From Eledone cirrhosa (lineage: Eukaryota): a DNA stretch of 64,000 nucleotides. Made by a program: the position numbers and the translations under genes. The notes beneath the pieces were generated by a model. That model was not told the origin of the DNA. It ran no database searches and saw nothing but the letters and a program-made list of their open reading frames with translations. This document shows positions 20,582 to 59,168 of the stretch, one piece after another. The stretch lies in assembly GCA_964016885.1 (NCBI GenBank), contig OZ024740.1, forward strand, positions 168,516,001 to 168,580,000, written 5' to 3'. Position 1 is the first letter of the stretch; every line of letters starts with the position of its first letter.

Positions 20582-21417
20582 ATAATCATAACAATGAAGG
20601 TGGTAACATCGTCAACAACAATAACATTAAATATAGCAATAACAACAGCAATGACTATAGAAATAACTTCTTCTCCTCCTCCCCTCCTCCTCCTGTAAGG
20701 GTCATAGGGGCAGAGTTCTCAGACACCTTCCAGATGATGTAAACAAAGCTAACCCTGTTTATGAATGTTATTCTACCATCTTGCTTGTCTACTGCTTCAT
20801 GTCATGACAGTTGGCTTTGCTCAATGAATTACATCATTAAAAATTATATTAATGAAAAAATAAGAAAAAACATTTTGAGACATTTTGGCACAATTAAACG
20901 AAGAGCTAATTTATATGTATTCAATATCAACTATACAATTAAGGAAACTCTAATTATACAGTATCCCCCATACCTCTTTTTTATACGGATTTACATTTTG
21001 TTGAACTGGAGGATTAAAAGCAAGTGTCTTTCCTTAGAAGATAGCATTGTTATTGAATTGTCAGACTTTTTAGTTAGTAAGGTAGCCCATTATCGATTTA
21101 GCTTGCTATCATTCTTATAGTTAAGACGTTTTTCAAATATTTACTCAGTTATAAACGGAAAAATTGAAACGAAATTTCATTTCCCACTCTTAGTACGGCT
21201 GTTACTTAAATATAAGTATGTATACGTACATACATATATGTATACAGACGTACAGTAGTATGTATATATATATACATACATGCACACATATATATATGTA
21301 CGTATGGATTCACCGAACATTTATTATAATTCTCGGTGTGTTTGTAAACAAACATCCCGTATTAAGTCGTAGTGTTCTGCAACCATCGTTGCTCGTTTGT
21401 TCAACACTGACAAAGGA

Positions 21418-21460
21418 ACGCTGTACTAGTTTCAAGCTTATTAGCTATCGTCAGCAATGT
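21418..21460 (-). ncRNA. Minimal type-I hammerhead ribozyme (inverted unit)
   Basis: ACATTG-CTGACGA-TAGCTAATAAGCTT-GAAA-CTAG-TA-CAGCGT on the minus strand. Confidence 0.7.
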
Positions 21461-21693
21461 ATACCTTCCTACCAGATGATTGAACGTCTGAAAGTATGTA
21501 CGTATACATACTTATATTTAAGTAACAGCCGTACTAAGAGTGGGAAATGAAATTTTGTTTCATTTTTCCGTTTATCGTTTTCGGTGCATCCGGCCGATTA
21601 ACCCACTCGATATGCAAATTGGGCTACTCAGCCGTTAATATGCATAAGGAAAGTATATACTTTCAGACGTTCAATCATCTGGCAGGAAGGTAT

Positions 21694-21736
21694 ATGTTGC
21701 TGACGATAGCTAATAAGCTTGAAACTAGTACATCGT
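21694..21736 (+). ncRNA. Minimal type-I hammerhead ribozyme (unit 1)
   Basis: ATGTTG-CTGACGA-TAGCTAATAAGCTT-GAAA-CTAG-TA-CATCGT. Confidence 0.7.
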
Positions 21737-21875
21737 TCCTTTGTCAGTTTTGAACAAACGAGCAACGATGGTTGCTAGACACTACGGCTTAATACGGGAT
21801 GTTTGTTTACAAACACACCGAGCATTATAATAAATGTTCGGTGAATCCATACGTACATATATATATGTGTGCATG

Positions 21876-21947
<72 letters not shown>

Positions 21948-22173
21948 CTACTGTACGTCTGTATACATATATGTATGTACGTATACATACTTATATTTAA
22001 GTAACAGCCGTACTAAGAGTGGGAAATGAAATTCCGTTTCATTTTTTCTGTTTATCGTTTTCGGTGCACCCGGCCGATTAACCCACTCGATATGCAAATT
22101 GGGCTACTCAGCCGTTAATATGCATAAGGAAAGTATATACTTTCAGACGTTCAATCATCTGGCAGGAAGGTAT

Positions 22174-22216
22174 ACGTTGCTGACGATAGCTAATAAGCTT
22201 GAAACTAGTACAGCGT
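22174..22216 (+). ncRNA. Minimal type-I hammerhead ribozyme (unit 2)
   Basis: ACGTTG-CTGACGA-T AGC TAATAA GCT T-GAAA-CTAG-TA-CAGCGT; 6-bp stem I, palindromic ACTAGT stem III, GUA cleavage triplet. Confidence 0.8.
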
Positions 22217-23776
22217 TCCTTTGTTAGTGTTGAACAAACGAGCAACGATGGTTGCTAGACACTACGGCTTAATACGGGATGTTTGTTTACAAACACACCG
22301 AGCATTATAATAAATGTTCGGGGAATCCATACTTACATATATATATATGTGTGCATGTATATATATATACATACTACTGTACGTCTGTATACATATATGT
22401 ATGTACGTATACATACTTATACTCAGTTATATATAAGCTTGTTTGTTGCTGTCTTTTCTGTTAAGATGGGTTTTTGTACTTTTAGTGTCAATGAATTAAA
22501 TTACATAAACCTGTTCAATGTATTGTAATTATATTGAATAATTTGACTAGGCATTTTAGTTTTTAAAGAGACATCAAAGCATGAAAGAAATCTTATATAT
22601 AAGAAAACATACAATGATTTAAAACAGTGAAAAGAGAATTGTTGTTGTTTAGCCCAGATCAGCCATGATTGAGCACACCTATAATAAAAGACATTTTGTC
22701 TGTGACCATTATTCAGCAAGCCCTTTCTTCTCTGAGATGGCTAGGTGGGATCTAAGGGATATTTTGCTGTTGTTTTTAGCAGGTCAAACAAACAAGTAGA
22801 GGCGCTCGGAGAAAATTCATATTGCCTGATAAGCTTAAATAAAGTATGTAGATTGTCAGTTTTAGAAAGTATTATAATATATTGTGAGTGTTAAAGTTCA
22901 ATGAATGTTATCAGAGTCAACCAGGATAAGAATTATATGAAAAAAAAAATTGCTCTTGATATCTACAGAAACTTTTGTGTTCAGGGTTAAAAGCACTACT
23001 ATTAACGAGTCTTTGTTTATTAATACGATGTACTTGTTTAATAGTTACTGAAGTAAGTTAATCCAAGGAGTTTAATGGTATCAACTTGTGTTGTGGGAAC
23101 TTGTGAGTAGGAATATGCACTTATTTTTATATTGTCAATGAACTGTGAACTAAATTTTCCTGTCTTAAATATTCAATTCAATGATCGTAAATTAAGTGTA
23201 GGTTTTAATCAACTGTTATTTTTCACAAATTTGTCTTTTGGGGTCATTTGTTTCTTGTTCTGTCATCATAGATTAATAAAGTTTTATCAATGTATCATTT
23301 CACCTTCATTTTTTGTTTACTTCCATTTGTATAATGTTTTATAGTTTATTGTATCTGTTCTTGTACTTAACCTGATCTCTCATAGCACTTATAGTTTCTT
23401 TTGTCTTACAGGATAGTGTCCTTAATTATCATACTGTCTTTTTTCATTTATGAAGCAACATCTATTTACTTGAAGCAAATTAACATAGAGTTTTTCTCAC
23501 TACACCGTTATATTTAATGTTTTCCCATTATATTCAATGTATATATGTGTAGTGATATTTCTATGATGGTGATAATAATCTACTTACAGGAAAATGTTTA
23601 GTGCTACATTACTTGCAACACTGGAAATTTACTTTACAGCTAAAACATAACATTGTCAGCTGAAATAGAAAACAAATAGATTCAAATCTTAAATAAAAGC
23701 TTATTGTAATTTCTTAATCTTCATTCAGTGAAAAAGATTCACAGTATTAGCTAATATATATATGCTTTTGACTTTA

Positions 23777-47619: not shown

Positions 47620-47780
47620 ACATCATCATCATCATTTAACGTCCATCTTCCACGCTTGCATGGGTTTGGATGAGAGTTTTCCCACTTGAGGCAAGAGTGG
47701 TTGTCTTGCTCGCATAGGACTGTCTGGCGGATTTTCTACGGCTGGATGCCATTCCTAACACCAACTACGTTTACAGTGTT
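47620..47780 (-). mobile_element. RTE family A tail only
   Basis: Matches the 3' 160 bp of 38830-39768. Confidence 0.85.
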
Positions 47781-47867
47781 ACACATATATATACATATAC
47801 ATACATACATATTATATACATATACATACATATACATATATATGTATATGTATATATATATGTATAT

Positions 47868-49410
47868 GGTGGTGTCATACCCAAAGACTGGTGCAGCAGT
47901 ATTCTTATAAATTGCTACAAAGGTAAAGGGGATGCTCTGGAGAGGAGCAATTATAGGGGTATAAAACTGATGGATCAGGTTATGAAAGTGGCAGAAAGGA
48001 TATTAGCACAAATAATTAGAGAAAGGGTCAAACTAGATGAGATGCAGTTTGGTTTTGTGCCTGGGAAGAGTACAACAGATGCCCTCTTCTTGGGGAGACA
48101 ATTGCAAGAGAGCTTCTTAGAGAAAAATAAGCCACTATACTTAGCCTTTGTTGACCTAGAGAAGGCCTTTGATAGGGTACCCCAATCTGTCATCTGGTGG
48201 TCCCTAAGGAAACTAGGTGTTGAGGAATGGCTTGTGAGAACAGTGCAAACTTTGTACAGAGGTACTCTCAGTAAAGTCAGGGTAGGAATGGAGTTTAGTG
48301 AGGAATTCCAGATACAAGTAGGAGTACATCAAGGTTCAGTCCTCAGCCCGCACTTGTTCATTATAGTCCTCTAAGCCATAACAGAGGAGTTTAAGACTGG
48401 CTGTCCATGGGAACTTCTCTATGCTGACGATCTGGTTCTTATAGCAGAATCAGTAGAGGAGCTAGAGAATAAATTCTGGCTATGGAAACAGCAGTTGGAA
48501 GCAAGAGGACTGAGAGTGAACCTAGCTAAGACAAAAGTGTTGATGAGTAGAAAAGAGGATAAAACTCTGATTCCATCAGGGAAATGGCCATGTTCGATAT
48601 GCAGAAAAGGAACTGGCATAAATTCTATAAAATGCACACAATGCAGATCCTGGGTTCACAAGAGATGGAGTGGGATAGCAGGAAAACTAACAGGTAGGGA
48701 GACATATGTATGCAGTAGATGTACAGGGAAATTAGACAGTAGAAGTCGCATTGATAGACACATTTTTCAAATGCAGGAGGGTGCTATAGAAGTGGTGGAT
48801 AGCTTCCGGTACCTAGGAGATCAGATTAGCATGTGAGCAGGGTGTTCCGAGGCCATAGTATCCAGAATAAGGATGGGTTGGAAGAAGTTTAGGGATCTGC
48901 TTCCTCTGCTGATGAAGAAGGGTTTCTCCCTGCGTACGAAAGGCCGGTTATATGATGCCTGTGTGAGGAGCGCGATGCTGCATGGTAGTGAGACATGGGC
49001 AGCAACTGCAGATGATATGCGACGGCTGGAGAGAAATGAGGCAAGCATGCTCCATTGGATGTGCAGTGTAAATGTGCGTGAACGACCCAGCATGAATGTG
49101 TTGAGAGAGAAACTTTGTCTGAGAGGGATAGAATGTAGTGTACGGGAGAGGAGACTGAGGTGGTATGGACATGTGATGCGCATGGAGGATGACCGATGGG
49201 TGAAGAAGTTCCAGGTAATGCCAGTTGAAGGAAGACGTGGTAGAGGTAGACCACGAAAAACATGGGCAGATGTGGTGAGAACAGACCTCAGATCATTAAA
49301 GCTCACGGTGGAGATGATGAACGACCGTGACGAGTGGAGAGATGCTGTGCTGAATAAGACGCGTCCCACCCTTACAAGCAGGGAAGAGCGGACATAAAAT
49401 GATGATGATG
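47868..49410 (+). mobile_element. RTE LINE (family D) RT region to tail, pseudogenised
   Basis: [53 protein letters not shown]; in-frame stops. Confidence 0.95.
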
Positions 49411-49982: not shown

Positions 49983-50292
49983 ACGGCGATGAAAAAATGG
50001 CGTAGACATACAACACAACAGGAGGAACAATGAATATAACACCACTGACGATGTTGCAGATGTGCAACGAAAGATTTATGTAAATTATGTAAACTATATA
50101 TATGTGTTTGTGTCTATATTGTATCTGTATTATTTTTGACCGCCGGTCAGTCAATGGCAACATTGAGGACCGAGTAAGTTAGATCGCAGATATAAAAGAC
50201 AGCGAGAAGCGAAAACCAACCAAACAGTGAGTGTGTTCTGTTATTAATTCTGGCAATATTACGCAAATATGACCCTCCCCAAATATAACAAT
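49982..50292 (+). mobile_element. Solo Penelope-type 3' UTR/pLTR fragment in a TA tract
   Basis: Homologous to the 3' UTR of the PLE at 18335-20330; contains CTGACGA-stem-GAAA. Confidence 0.7.
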
Positions 50293-50305
50293 ATGTATAT
50301 ATATG

Positions 50306-50501: not shown

Positions 50502-50695
50502 TAACGAAGGAAATGTGGTAAGGAACTAGGTGGACCATAACGCACCAAAGTACTCAATACTTGAGGTAGTAGAGTGGGTAATAGGAACCAGTAAGACCCC
50601 GACAGCTGAGCTCAAGCCGTTTCGACGGCTAATTCAATGAATTAGCCGTCGAAACGGCTTGAGCTCAGCTGTCGGGGTCTTACTGGTTCCTATTA
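50502..50695 (-). mobile_element. Fold-back element with perfect 58-bp arms containing a half hammerhead
   Basis: 50579-50636 = rc(50638-50695); GAAA-CGGC-TTGAGCTCA-GCTG-TC. Confidence 0.7.
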
Positions 50696-50846: not shown

Positions 50847-50881
50847 GTAAATATATATACACATATATATATGTATATATA

Positions 50882-51521
50882 TAAGAAAATTTTAAAAAAA
50901 ATTAAAAAAAATTAACTTACTAAAATTTTCACTCCAACTAATTAGTTTCTGCAATGGGATAAAGACAGTTACGTAATAAACTGTTGAGAATTCATTGCGT
51001 CATCAGGGAGGTCTATTCTCAGCTAAGTCTCCAGGCAATGCACGGACACTGGGGACTCATATAAAAATAATAATAATTCGGTAAATGGAACAGCTAGCGG
51101 GGACTGGATTCCATGCACTGAAAATCTCGCTGTCACTGGTCAAATGGTAGATTCTAAAGAATCAATCACGTGACACTGAGGGTAGGAGTGGGATGGTAAG
51201 ATGACAGAAGCCTCCTAACACACCAAAAAAATAGTAGTGGTTTTGGCAGGTTTGCTCGACAAATAAGTGATTTGGAGATAAATATAGAGAATTTAGTATA
51301 TCTACCAACATAGCGTACAGATTACGCTAATGCCAGCAAATACACAGGTTATGTCATAGTACCTAGGTGGTTCAATGCAGGAGGATGCAGAACAATAATA
51401 TAAAAGACGTAAAATAAGAAAATTAAAAAAAAAATTTTTTTAAATTAACTTACTTACTAAAATTTTCGCTCCAACTAATTAGTTTCTGCAATGGGATAAA
51501 GACAGTTACGTAATAAACTGT
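50882..51521 (-). mobile_element. Retrozyme-like element, ~1.2 units of a 537-bp monomer
   Basis: Direct repeats ~50882-50984 and ~51414-51521, each spanning the hammerhead cleavage region. Confidence 0.75.
50932..51010 (-). ncRNA. Type-I hammerhead ribozyme
   Basis: CTCC-CTGATGA-C GCAATG...CATTGC A-GAAA-CTAATTAG-TT-GGAG; palindromic stem III ACTAATTAGT, GUU triplet. Confidence 0.75.
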
Positions 51522-51571
51522 CTATGTGTATAAACTGTCTATATGTATATATATATATATATATATGTATG

Positions 51572-51606
<35 letters not shown>

Positions 51607-51619
51607 GTATACATATATG

Positions 51620-51650
<31 letters not shown>

Positions 51651-51679
51651 GTATATATATATATATGTATATATATATG

Positions 51680-51712
<33 letters not shown>

Positions 51713-51778
51713 GTATATATATATATATATGTATATACAATATTAAGCAAATGGAAACTATATTTATAAAACCATAAT

Positions 51779-51844
51779 TATTTCGTTATATATATTTCAG
51801 GGATATCATATTAAAAATATGGTATGCCTTCCTCAGACAAAATA
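51779..51844 (-). ncRNA. Minimal type-I hammerhead ribozyme (inverted arm)
   Basis: Reverse complement of 51941-52006. Confidence 0.7.
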
Positions 51845-51940
51845 CAATACATAAGCTGTTTTACAAATCAACTTTTTAAATGGAAGTTGCATTATTTAAA
51901 AGGTATGTCAAAAATGATTTATAAAACAGCTTATGTATTG

Positions 51941-52006
51941 TATTTTGTCTGAGGAAGGCATACCATATTTTTAATATGATATCCCTGAAATATATATAAC
52001 GAAATA
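51941..52006 (+). ncRNA. Minimal type-I hammerhead ribozyme
   Basis: TATTTTGT-CTGAGGA-AGG..CATATT TTT AATATG..CCT-GAAA-TATATA-TA-ACGAAATA; 8-bp stem I, AUA triplet. Confidence 0.75.
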
Positions 52007-52157
52007 AATATGGTTTTATAAATATAGTTTCCATTTGCTTAATATCGTAAACCTACTCCAGAAACTGTTGAGTGCTTTTATATCAGTTATAAAATATTTA
52101 CTCGTTGTAACCCAACAATCTTAAATAAAACTTTTGCATATATGTATATATATATAT

Positions 52158-52913
52158 ATCATCGTGATCATCATCATTCGTTTAACGTCCATATTCCACG
52201 CTTGCATGGGTTTGGACGGGAGTTTTCCCACTTGAGGCAAGAGTGGTTGTCTTGCTCGCAAAGGACTGTCTGGCGGGTTTTCTACAGCTGGATACCCTTC
52301 CTAACACCAACCACATTTACAGTGTGGAACTGAGAGGTTTTTACCGTGTTACCTACACGGCCACATTACAGCGTGGACTGTGTGTTTTTTTGTCGTGACA
52401 CCTACACGACCTCATTTGTTTCGGCCTGGATGTTGGTACCAACATAACTTTACATTGAAAGGGGTGGTGTGGATGGGGTGGGGGTAGTGGGACGGGGGTG
52501 TATTTTTTTAGAGGTGCCTACTGACTGTAGTAGGTTTTACTTTGTATTTAGGTAAGGCGGGTCTTCTCTATTACTGTGTAGCGCCAAAGATCTCAGTCCA
52601 GTGACATTGTCTTGGAGAGGTGTAAGTGTGTGAGGTCGGAATTTATCAAGTCGTCCCAGGTTTTTCTGGGTCTGCCTACTCTGTGGCTACCGTCTATTTT
52701 TATTGCCCTGCACTTTTTTATACAGCTGTCGTCTTTCATGCGCATCACATGACCATACCAACGTAGCCTTCTCTCGAGTAAACAACATCTGATCCCTCTT
52801 ATTTCTAATTTTTCACATAGTTCGTTTATGCTTTGCCGTTCACGTATATTACTATTACACATCCAGCGGAGCATGCAAGCTTCGTTCCTCTCTAGTTTGC
52901 GTATATCCTCTGC
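52158..52913 (-). mobile_element. RTE family A, 5'-truncated
   Basis: ORF 52593-52937; tail. Confidence 0.92.
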
Positions 52914-53781: not shown

Positions 53782-54613
53782 ATCATCATCATCATCATCA
53801 TCATCGTTTAACGTACATGTTCCACGCTTGCATGGGTTTGGATGGGAGTTTTCCCACTTGAGGCAAGAGTGGTTGTCTTGCTCGCATAGGACTGTCTGGC
53901 GGGTTTTCTACAGCTGGATGCCCTTCCTAACACCAACCACATTTACAGTGTGGGACTGGGAGGTTTTTACCGTGTTGCCTACACGGCCACATTACAGCGT
54001 GGACTGTGTGTTTTTTGTCGTGACACCTACGCGATCTCATTTGTTTTCGGCCTGGATGTTGTGGCACCAACATAACTTTACATTGAAAGGGGCGGTGTGG
54101 ATGGGGTGGGGGTGGTGGGACGGGGGTGTATTTTGTTAGAGATGCCTACTGACTGTAGTAGGTTTTACTTTGTATTTAGGTAAGGCGGGTCTTCTCTATT
54201 ACTGAGTACCGCCAAAGGTCTCGGTCCAGTGACATTGTCTTGGAGAGGTGTAAGTGTGTGAGGTCGGAATTTATCAGCTCGTCCCAGGTTTTTCTGGGTC
54301 TGCCTACTCCGTGGCTACCATCTATCTTTATTGCCCTGCACTTTGTTATACAGCTGTCGTCTTTCATGCGCATCACGTGACCATACCAACGTAGCCTTCT
54401 CTCGAGTAAACAATATCTGATCCCTCTTATTTCTAATTTTTTCCTTAGTTCGTTTATGCTTTGCCGTTCACGTATATTACTATTACACATCCAGCGGAGC
54501 ATGCAAGCTTCGTTCCTCTCTAGTCTGCGTATATTCTCTGTACACAATGCCCAGGTCTCACTGCCATGCAACATTGCTGTTCGTATGCAGGCATCATACA
54601 ACCTGCCTTTCAT
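53782..54613 (-). mobile_element. RTE family A, 5'-truncated
   Basis: ORF 54176-54613; tail. Confidence 0.93.
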
Positions 54614-56461: not shown

Positions 56462-59168
56462 CTAGGGCGGGTAAAATTCCCGAGATCCATGGACGAGTTC
56501 TCTCCAGCGGTCTCTGTCCCTCATTATTGCTACCATGTCCTGCGTCTCCAACAGATCAGTGTCTGTCCTTAGGGCATCAACATACGTTAACCCTGGTCTT
56601 CCTCTTCCAGTGTGTCCATATAGGGGCTCCCATAGGAGCACTAAGTGCAATGTCAACTCTGGATGTCGGTGAGCATGTCCAGCCAACCTCAGTCTCCCCT
56701 GTGTCACTTTTGAGTTTCTCATCCTCAGTGTATACTGATTAATGTTCAGAGCCATCCTCAGCATTCTCATGTAGCACCCATCCACCAACCTAGTGAGTTT
56801 CTTTGTCAGTGTCCAAGTCTCAGAACCGTACAGCAGCACAGACTCCACTACAGCAATGAAGAAGCGGATTTTCAGGTCTTTACGAAGGTCCGACTTCCAC
56901 ACCGATCACAAGGTGTGGCACGCCGCCGAGGCGTTGCTCTTCCTCTCAGCCACAACATCTTCCATATTCCCAATCATTGCTCCCAAATACATGAAGTCCT
57001 CAACCAATTCTAGCGGCTTCCCGCCTACATTAGTGATCCCCTCTGGCTTCTCAACATTCTCTACCAGATATTTTGTTTTAGTCTCATTCATTCTCAGCCC
57101 CACACTCATCGACACAGTCTCAATCTCCTGCGTCAAATCCTCTGCCTCCTTCACTATATTTGTCACCAAAAAACTATGTCGTCGGCAAATTCAGCATCCG
57201 ATATCTTTTTTGCCTTAACTCTCCTGCTCTGAGCCGGTGCTACAGTAAAGCCAGAGTCCTGGTGTTTCTCCAGTGCAAGGCGCATACAATAGTCCACTAC
57301 GATGATAAAAAGGTAGGAAGCCAATGCATCTCCCTGGAGCACTTCAGCCAGTATCTCAAAGAACGTTGTCATCCCATCAGGTGTAATGACTTTGGTTTTG
57401 GTGTAGAGCAGATATATCAGGTCCATTATCTTCTTGGGGATTCCATAAGCCTGTAAGATCTTCATCAGGCAATGACGGTCCACAGAATCAAAAGCCTTCC
57501 TAGAGTCAATGAAAACCATGACCACAGGAAGGCACTTTGCTCTAGCTCCCTCTAATATCCTCCTCAGCATCAGGATGTGACTGGTGGTTGATCTTCCCTC
57601 TCTGAAGCTGTTCTGGTTGTCCCTGAGCTTCTTCTCCATCTCAGGCTGGATCCTGTTAAGAATCATCCTGTTGAGAGTCTTTGCCACAAGTGACGTCAGT
57701 GAGATCCCCTTGTAGTTGTTGGTGTTAGAGAGATCTCCCTTCTTTGGCACTGGGACGATGTTACTGATCCTCCACTGATTCGGGGCAATTCCTTTCCCCA
57801 GTGCCTGATTACAGAACCCCAGGATGATATCATCAAAATCATACCTCTTCATCACCTCTGATGCCATTCCATCTTCTCCATGAGCCTTGCCCTCCTTGAT
57901 CTTCTTCTTGGCTCTCTGAAGCTCCTCTCTGGTGAAGGGCTCTGTCTCAATATCCAGTTCTTCAAACAGCCGCCTGATCTCCCCAGTGCTCTTGGCTATG
58001 GAGGGCGGCTCTCCTAGTAGGGTCCTAAAATGGTCTAGCCATTTTCTCTTCCTATCCTCGGACCCTGTTCCCTGGATCTGACTCGAACACCTTCTCCTCC
58101 TCCCTGTGATCTCGTTGATGATCATCCAGCTCTCCTTACATCCAGACCTGTCAACTGTTCTCTCCACACTTCTGATCTTCTCTATCAGTGCCTCCTCTCT
58201 GGCCTCAGTGTAAGCGGTACAGAGTTCTTCCCTCATCACCTCCACAGTCTCCATCCTCTCCTCCATAGGATCGGCATAGAATTGGTCCTTGGCAGCTTTC
58301 AGGTGTTCTCTGGCTGCACACTCTTTTGGGTCTGCAGAGCTGACATGCTTCCTTTTGTTCTTTCTCCTTGTCACCAGGGTCTCACTTGCTTCCACCACTG
58401 CATTGGTGAAGTGCCTGTACCTCCTCGTCACACTCTCCCCAGTTCATCCAATCTCTCTCTCCTCTGTCTCTCCACACAGAGCACTGAACCTGTTCCTCAC
58501 TTCCACTGTGAACCTCTCCTGTAGCTTATCATCTTCCTTGAAAACTCCCCAGTCATAGATTGCTCTCCGGGGCTGAGCCTTACTCTTTCTTAAGCTCACC
58601 TGGACCTCACTCATAACAAGCCGGTGGTCACTACCCAGTGTACTGAAATAGTTGTATGGTTCTGTGTTCAGAACACTATTCCGCCACTTTTTCCTCACCA
58701 GAAGGAAATCAATCTGGGACTTGGACAGGTGCATATCTGAGATGTTGGTCCGCATCTTGCTCGGATTCTTCCTAAACCTAGGTTGGTCGCTATCAAGTTT
58801 GCCTCCAGCAGGGTGTCTCTCAATTGTCTTCCATTTTGGTTGGTGTTATGGAAGTACCAGCAAGCATCTTCACTGCCCTCCTTACATTCTTAATTAAGTG
58901 CATTGAAGTCCCCCAAAACAAGCAGGATGTTGTATGCTTGTGCGGTGTTGACAGCTCTACACAGCTCCTCATGGAACTCTTCTGCACTCACATCACTGTC
59001 TCCCTCGGTTGGACTATAGGCTGAGATGACTGTCAGTCTTGGGTTTCTATTGAAGGTCACCCTCAACACTTGTGCGGAGACAGGTATTATTTCCCTCACC
59101 AATAGACTGGTTTTTGTGCTCAAAACAAAACCCACTCCTCCAACTGCAGCATTGGTCATGTTCCTCAT
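56462..59168 (-). mobile_element. Near full-ORF RTE-clade LINE (family B; APE + RT), frameshifted, ending directly in (TA)n
   Basis: GGVGF, SAYSPT, GDFNA, QIDFLL, SDHRLV, YKGISLTS, FIDSRKAFD, LQGD, FADD, YGSETW, GRGRP. Confidence 0.95.

What the first reader, a model, noticed from the sequence alone, without database searches (positions are those of the whole stretch)
50882..51521. 537-nt monomer bounded by two hammerhead cleavage sites on the minus strand
Seen: a full hammerhead at 50932-51010 (CTCC/GGAG stem I, CTGATGA, GCAATG/CATTGC stem II with a long loop, GAAACTAATTAGTT). A second copy at 51469-51521 is truncated in the stem II loop, 537 bp away. The interior is non-coding and both flanks are TA tracts. 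Inference: slightly more than one round of reverse transcription of a circular or tandem RNA, as in retrozymes.
Basis: partly seen in the sequence, partly recalled or inferred. Interest (0 to 1): 0.75.

Follow-up and report, generated by a model that had tools for sequence, protein, structure and literature searches.

The report
Ribozyme parasite carrying Penelope insertion footprints
This is one of thousands of copies of a protein-free jumping RNA with a predicted self-cutting (hammerhead) fold; its copies end exactly as Penelope retrotransposons do, so a Penelope enzyme likely pastes it, probably from an RNA circle.

Summary
In detail: a complete type I hammerhead (50932-51010, minus strand), a 5'-truncated second copy 537 nt away, no coding frame, (TA)n on both sides. 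It is a dispersed family: 3,772 exact and 9,988 looser hammerhead matches genome-wide (controls 0), with compensatory changes in stem II. One correction: insertions are not bounded by the cut. Their 3' ends sit at two fixed sites about 75 and 195 nt past it (4,476 ends at the first site, 2 at the cut). All 27 resolved inverted insertions have one end of each kind. This is the Penelope-like element (PLE) 'tail' footprint; an autonomous Neptune-type PLE here shows it too (11 of 11). Two sister hammerhead families share the layout and a short RNA motif behind the first site; one insertion holds 8 near-identical units. Best reading: an animal non-LTR retrozyme copied by a PLE reverse transcriptase, likely from a circle, with both target strands primed. 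Not shown: cleavage, expression, circles, the partner PLE. The class and its PLE link are published; the insertion footprint and the shared motif were not found in the papers searched.

The parts
50884..51521 (-). Whole insertion, about 1.2 units, direct (non-inverted) type, 5'-truncated at unit position 489; the 3' end blurs into TA at 50881-50886
50936..51472 (-). 537-nt cut-to-cut unit (predicted circular RNA); 37% GC, non-coding; circular fold -122 kcal/mol, z = -4.9 against 60 dinucleotide shuffles
50932..51010 (-). Complete type I hammerhead: stem I 51010-51007 with 50935-50932; core 51006-51000; stem IIa 50998-50993 with 50956-50951; stem IIb 50984-50979 with 50970-50965; palindromic stem III 50946-50937; predicted cut after 50936
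51469..51521 (-). 3' half of a second hammerhead (no core); predicted cut after 51473, only by pairing with an intact core (dimer form)
50884..50935 (-). 3' extension past the cut; ends about 18 nt short of the family's usual first end site (atypical copy)
51417..51450 (-). A/T tract that differs even between units of one insertion; accounts for most differences between the two repeats here
51398..51412 (-). End site 1 of the family (unit position 75); inferred first start site of reverse transcription
51367..51393 (-). GUUCUG-hairpin-GAACCAC motif, shared with two sister hammerhead families just behind their site 1; candidate enzyme-binding signal
51296..51343 (-). Long hairpin with compensatory changes, inside the 'tail' between the two end sites
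51278..51295 (-). End site 2 of the family (unit position about 195); inferred second start site
51522..51538 (-). 5' junction: short re-copied piece of the element's first bases with target-like bases between, as after slippage
50696..50883 (.). (TA)n-type microsatellite flank; no target-site duplication can be read
51539..51737 (.). (TA)n-type microsatellite flank

Best explanation
It is a copy of a non-coding, hammerhead-bearing repeat family whose insertions sit in (TA)n and end at two fixed internal sites, likely pasted by the reverse transcriptase-endonuclease of a Neptune-type Penelope-like element working on a likely circular 537-nt RNA. Steps: (1, inferred) transcripts spanning two cut sites are cleaved, probably as a double hammerhead through the palindromic stem III, and ligated to a circle. 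(2, inferred) The PLE protein binds the structured stretch 75-195 nt past the cut and nicks (TA)n DNA. (3, ends shown, priming inferred) Copying starts at site 1 or site 2. When both strands are primed, one uses site 1 and the other site 2, giving head-to-head inverted insertions with the 120-nt tail on one end. (4, shown) Copying runs across the cut site without a scar and stops at scattered points after 0.1 to more than 3 rounds. The window copy is a direct insertion of about 1.2 rounds.
For: Family size and controls. Covariation on 25 distinct hammerheads: 94.4% of cells paired, 58 double-sided changes, slid controls 37-49%. Ends in 44 insertions besides the window (39 consecutive on contig 1, 5 best hits): 27 inverted, all site 1 + site 2; 15 direct (11 site 1, 4 site 2); 2 unresolved. 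The chance of 27 of 27 mixed under independent choice is at most 7e-9. Genome-wide: 4,476 site-1 ends in TA against 0 and 2 ends at the cut. Positive control: a young autonomous family with RT, GIY-YIG and a linker zinc finger also ends in (TA)n at two sites, mixed in 11 of 11 inverted copies with both ends in view among 36 loci (one end at the locus edge). Literature: tails on one end, inverted 5'-truncated arms and microsatellite bias are PLE traits (10.1101/2021.04.23.441226, passages); a PLE RT starts at two internal sites that define the tail and extends both nicked strands (PMC11167929). Circle: units within one insertion share haplotypes (1.3-1.4% apart, against about 7% to the median other copy). 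A sister-family inverted insertion holds 8 full 483-nt units with one substitution among them.
Against: No autonomous PLE sharing this hammerhead, unit sequence or motif was found among 50 GIY-YIG loci, 36 loci of the young family, 20 diverged copies or 60 sister-family loci, so the partner is unnamed. No cleavage, expression or circle data. The monomer stem III is weakly predicted (pair probability 0.12) and the extra A before G12 is non-canonical. Only 1 of 9 predicted Xenopus retrozyme dimers cleaved in vitro (10.64898/2026.07.22.740005). In the one reconstituted PLE, cleavage was not needed for insertion. Within-insertion distance is no lower than distance to the nearest other insertion, so a young linear tandem source fits too. 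One array switches haplotype in mid-unit (L031). One sister-family insertion has site 2 at both ends (L185). The window copy ends about 18 nt short of site 1.
Confidence: 0.62

Rival explanations
1. Same PLE machinery, but the template is an uncut or partly cut linear read-through of a tandem locus. The hammerhead trims or regulates the RNA, and circles are not intermediates.
For: Hammerhead-dead RNA inserted normally in vitro for the anole PLE, and uncut RNA was the main substrate. No scar at the cut in the junctions listed, apart from a few single-base changes. A minority of arms begin at or within 2-3 nt of the cut (11 genome-wide TA-flanked starts; 3 of 71 arm calls), so some templates may be linear cut RNA.
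Against: 5' truncation would shrink arrays each generation, yet young subfamilies have arms of more than 3 units (L123) and a sister family has 8.8 near-identical units. The ribozyme fold is kept by compensatory change across subfamilies 70-100% alike. Published animal retrozymes do form circles (PMC7229834).
Confidence: 0.28
2. A satellite or SINE-like repeat spread by another route (LINE retrotransposition from the cut 3' end, DNA rolling circle, or unequal crossing-over), with the PLE-like ends a coincidence of AT-rich microhomology.
For: Both end sites are UA-rich and could pair with a (TA)n primer. LINE-type RT fragments lie in the window. No partner PLE was found.
Against: No poly(A) tail, and 2 ends at the cut against 4,476 at site 1. 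Strict one-of-each pairing in 27 of 27 inverted copies, the same rule as in an autonomous PLE here. Copies are dispersed, not in long satellite blocks.
Confidence: 0.05
3. A viroid-like RNA that replicates RNA-to-RNA and is only occasionally captured in DNA.
For: Stable circular fold (z = -4.9) and a conserved ribozyme.
Against: A hammerhead on one strand only within the unit. Thousands of insertions of many ages and subfamilies with one uniform DNA-insertion footprint.
Confidence: 0.03

Closest known systems
Animal non-LTR retrozymes (Cervera and de la Pena 2020, PMC7229834; Li, Clavereau and Pollet 2026, 10.64898/2026.07.22.740005)
   Same: Non-coding tandem units with one type I hammerhead each, GC under 45-50%, no LTR, PBS or PPT seen, stable self-paired fold, coexisting with PLEs. 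537 nt is inside the 51-972 bp range of the 2026 preprint.
   Different: Longer than the 150-450 bp of the 2020 paper. Short dispersed arrays in (TA)n with inverted arms and two fixed ends, features not described in the parts of those papers I read. The hammerhead has a long two-part stem II, an extra C and A at its base, and cuts after GUU. RNA circles are not shown here. No link to a PLE terminal repeat was found, as for 33 of 57 Xenopus families.
Endonuclease-bearing Penelope-like elements, Neptune type (Craig et al. 2021; Frangieh et al. 2024)
   Same: Partial tandems, 5' truncation, head-to-head inverted arm, tail on one end only, microsatellite targets, hammerhead shortly upstream of two internal start sites.
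   Different: No RT or GIY-YIG frame. The tail is about 120 nt, not 30-40. Ends pair with the (TA)n target by a few UA bases, whereas the anole PLE starts at sites without homology to the cut DNA.
PLE minimal and dimeric hammerheads (Cervera and de la Pena 2014, PMC4209133)
   Same: Short stem I, long stem II, unpaired base between A9 and G10.1, G10.1-C11.1 pair, palindromic stem III suited to dimers.
   Different: Has a 3-bp stem III within a 10-nt palindrome, a second helix in stem II, and an extra A before G12.
Plant LTR retrozymes
   Same: A non-coding unit between two hammerhead sites, thought to move through circles.
   Different: Those use type III hammerheads in true LTRs with PBS, PPT and 4-bp target duplications and borrow Gypsy machinery (as summarised). 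None of that is seen here.

Membership tests
Type I hammerhead ribozyme | CUGANGA / GAAA / UH core around three stems, stem I open | tested here: met
   two extra bases at the base of stem II
Type I hammerhead ribozyme | Stems supported by covariation | tested here: met
   stems I, IIa and IIb vary compensatorily; stem III is invariant and was fixed by the search pattern, so it is uninformative
Type I hammerhead ribozyme | Match to an Rfam hammerhead model | tested here: not met
   likely due to the long stem II insertion (inference)
Type I hammerhead ribozyme | Self-cleavage at the predicted site | not testable with these tools
   indirect hint only: a few arms start at the cut
Animal non-LTR retrozyme | Multi-copy tandem units, one type I hammerhead per unit, at least two consecutive complete units in some loci | tested here: met
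   the window copy itself has only one complete hammerhead
Animal non-LTR retrozyme | No protein coding, low GC, no LTR-type signals | tested here: met
   (49 codons at most, 37% GC); copies lack fixed 5' ends; PBS and PPT were not searched separately
Animal non-LTR retrozyme | Expressed as linear and circular monomer RNA | not testable with these tools
   no RNA holder listed; only assembled contigs were available
Non-autonomous Penelope-like element | Partial tandems with an inverted 5'-truncated arm | tested here: met
   27 of 44 insertions cleanly inverted
Non-autonomous Penelope-like element | Two fixed internal 3' ends, tail on one end only | tested here: met
   27 of 27 inverted; 8 of 12 inverted diverged copies clean, 4 eroded; control family 11 of 11
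Non-autonomous Penelope-like element | AT-rich or microsatellite target | tested here: met
Non-autonomous Penelope-like element | Sequence shared with the pseudo-LTR of an autonomous PLE | tested here: inconclusive
   none in the loci sampled, but only a small part of 10,595 GIY-YIG candidates was seen
Autonomous Penelope-like element | RT plus GIY-YIG open reading frame | tested here: not met

The most novel reading that the evidence does not exclude
At least three non-coding hammerhead circle families of this genome parasitise one Neptune-type enzyme through a shared RNA signal (GUUCUG-hairpin-GAACCAC plus a long hairpin between two start sites). A protein dimer on one circular RNA primes both nicked strands of (TA)n, one at each site, and rolls round the circle. 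This would name the enzyme class behind animal retrozymes, define a portable cis signal of about 120 nt for PLE insertion, and explain PLE inverted repeats and tails as coupled twin priming.
Probability: 0.35. Interest if true: 0.75.

Novelty: new member of a known kind. Interest (0 to 1): 0.5.

Why it matters
Which enzyme moves animal retrozymes, and whether it copies circles, is open: the 2020 paper names PLEs as a candidate, and the 2026 preprint adds co-occurrence and sequence kinship and says the mechanism is unresolved. Here the insertions carry the PLE footprint in countable form, with a positive control in the same genome. A short non-coding template with two mapped start sites and a shared motif, beside a young PLE family with many intact 777-residue frames, makes the question testable in vitro. 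The one-end-of-each rule also bears on how PLEs build inverted repeats. The family helps explain what fills (TA)n fields in this genome. As a class it is known, which caps the score.

Tried and rejected
Rfam: no hammerhead match; the low-score miRNA hits are TA-repeat and palindrome noise. Expression: no RNA holder listed; the three runs are contigs of one sample and show presence and sequence variants only. Earlier findings: none by sequence. Partner search: GIY-YIG family scan with 50 loci read, 20 diverged copies with 9-10 kb each, three motif patterns (60 loci) and the young family gave no PLE frame attached to this unit or motif. PLE frames near L087, L099 and L100 lie beyond TA tracts or kilobases away and were read as separate insertions. 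A profile search of the genome was not available. Circle against linear source: within- and between-insertion distances do not separate them. A haplotype switch at the cut site, expected if different monomers were joined there, was not seen; L031 switches in mid-unit. The pile-up of 5' ends at the cut is small and was noticed after the fact (3 of 71 arm calls, some rows being alignment artefacts; 11 genome-wide without a firm null), so it is only a hint. First-pass end calls for L123, L133 and L048 were corrected by eye: L123 is direct, the other two unresolved. The 80% identity between the post-cut parts of the two repeats was considered as evidence for two templates and rejected, because that tract varies within most insertions. 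A possible intron after the cut and a short frame through the ribozyme in some variants were noticed and not tested. Whether the insertion lies in a host gene was not tested.

Full report
Observation. The minus strand carries a complete type I hammerhead at 51010-50932 and the 3' half of a second at 51521-51469, with predicted cuts 537 nt apart. The shared repeat runs from the middle of stem II to about 52-57 nt past the cut. Its ribozyme part is identical in 49 of 49 bases. The part past the cut is about 80% alike, differing by one substitution, a 4-nt repeat slip and an A/T tract. The unit is 37% GC, has no ATG frame over 49 codons, and folds as a circle at z = -4.9 against 60 shuffles. Rfam does not call the ribozyme.

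Family. The window lies in a 3.0-Gb animal assembly. From recalled repeat motifs it looks octopus-like; no call tested this. An exact hammerhead pattern has 3,772 matches and a looser one 9,988, both with 0 control matches. These count hammerheads, not insertions. Subfamilies 70-85% like the window unit keep a 520-570 nt unit and the same layout in 20 loci. On 25 distinct hammerheads (thinned from 58), 94.4% of cells pair and 58 show double-sided change, against 37-49% paired when partners are slid. One stem II pair appears as A-U, C-G, G-C and U-A in near-equal numbers. Stem III is a perfect 10-nt palindrome. The monomer form is weakly predicted (pair probability 0.12), while an intact core paired with the truncated copy's half scores -24.7 against -13.5 kcal/mol for the monomer fold. 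Dimer action of such motifs is described in PMC4209133 (passages).

Where insertions end. I mapped 44 insertions besides the window: 39 consecutive on contig 1 and 5 best hits; all needed a complete ribozyme to be picked, which favours longer copies. Twenty-seven are head-to-head inverted, and each has one end at unit position 75 and the other at about 195. Fifteen are direct (11 at 75, 4 at 195). Two are unresolved. Under independent choice the chance of 27 of 27 mixed is at most 7e-9. Among 12 inverted diverged copies, 8 are clean 75 + 195 and 4 are eroded. Genome-wide, 4,476 copies run from site 1 into TA; 0 and 2 run from the cut into TA. 5' ends scatter over the unit. So the DNA unit is not bounded by the cut. 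The window copy is atypical in stopping about 18 nt short of site 1, by an alternative UA-rich start or a later deletion; I cannot tell which.

Why a Penelope-like element. Partial tandems, an inverted 5'-truncated arm, a tail on one end and microsatellite bias are PLE traits (10.1101/2021.04.23.441226, passages). A purified PLE protein nicks and extends both strands of AT-rich DNA and starts at two internal sites that define the tail; hammerhead cleavage was not needed (PMC11167929, parts 1-2 of 4). This genome has many RT plus GIY-YIG elements (10,595 first-look candidates, 150 scored). Six of seven aligned carry the linker zinc finger of the Neptune type. One family has many identical-scoring copies with open frames of 777 residues. 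Its insertions end in (TA)n at two sites about 40 nt apart, one of each in 11 of 11 inverted copies with both ends in view among 36 loci. Against: no PLE sharing our unit, ribozyme or motif was found.

Sister families and a shared signal. A search of held loci found a GUUCUG-hairpin-GAACCAC motif right behind site 1 in two other hammerhead families, of 483 nt and 457-469 nt (2,251 and 599 pattern matches, mostly these families). Outside this motif and the AT-rich stretch before it, the 483-nt unit shows no clear similarity to ours; the third unit was not aligned with ours. All three tails are predicted to fold the motif hairpin, then a long hairpin that ends near site 2 (in our family 5 of 33 predicted pairs show double-sided change). 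Read by eye, inverted copies are mixed in 10 of 10 for the 483-nt family. For the third family 8 are mixed, 1 has site 2 twice (L185) and 4 are unresolved. The role of the motif as a binding signal is inference.

Circle or line. Units of one insertion share haplotypes on both arms (pooled 1.3% and 1.4% apart, against about 7% to the median other copy), but are no closer than the nearest other insertion. Copying crosses the cut without a scar. One 483-nt inverted insertion holds 8 full units with a single substitution; later tandem expansion or assembly smoothing could also give that. Since 5' truncation would shrink linear arrays over generations, some step must rebuild multimers from one unit, and a circle is the simplest. 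A small excess of arms starting at the cut hints that cut linear RNA is sometimes used. L031 shows a mid-unit switch between subfamilies. No RNA data were available.

Comparison and novelty. Animal non-LTR retrozymes and their circles are published, with PLEs proposed as movers (PMC7229834, part 2 of 6 and passages). A 2026 preprint argues they derive from PLE terminal repeats, found cleavage in 1 of 9 tests, and leaves the mechanism open (10.64898/2026.07.22.740005, parts 1-3 of 5). A giant squid genome paper counts 235 hammerhead matches without further analysis in the two passages seen (PMC6962438). Six searches (listings and abstract starts) showed no description of this family, of the two-end rule in retrozymes, or of the shared motif. 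Repbase and subscription journals were not searchable, so the family may be filed there. Verdict: a real feature and a new member of a known kind, which works like a non-autonomous PLE and gives a concrete test system. Interest 0.5.

Noticed in passing
window 50505-50695: Near-perfect inverted repeat (50579-50695) of a hammerhead 3' half with a palindromic stem III, and a longer tail on one arm, in the same TA field: another PLE-type inverted insertion.
   Followed up: partly
window 51735-52140: Inverted element with a complete hammerhead-like motif on each arm (51836 minus, 51949 plus) and a tail on one arm, directly beyond the TA flank.
   Followed up: partly
window 49985-50295: Short element between TA tracts with a hammerhead-like core at 50045.
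   Followed up: no
window 21150-22400: A different small-hammerhead family: two plus-strand motifs 480 nt apart and one inverted arm; the same motif occurs in triple tandem in L089.
   Followed up: partly
L169 (G000:C1:82115000-82122500): 483-nt hammerhead family: an inverted insertion with 8 full units differing by one substitution; the best single locus for rolling copying.
   Followed up: yes
L080 6500-7150; L173-L202: 457-469 nt hammerhead family with the same two-end layout and shared motif.
   Followed up: partly
L203-L238: Young autonomous Neptune-type PLE with many intact 777-residue frames, a microsatellite-filled 3' region, and a hammerhead-like motif whose core departs from CUGANGA; two other autonomous families show similarly altered cores.
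   Followed up: partly
unit positions about 25-55 in all copies (window 51417-51450): T-run/A-run tract whose T and A blocks interchange between units of one insertion, as if by hairpin-templated change or sequencing error.
   Followed up: no
window 47718-48833 (+) and 57163-58440 (-): Reverse transcriptase fragments (Pfam RVT_1), the first followed by a PHD-like finger; likely LINE remnants.
   Followed up: no
window 52178-52733 and 53804-54361: Direct repeat of about 550 nt, 95% alike, 1,626-1,628 apart, around a long TA tract.
   Followed up: no
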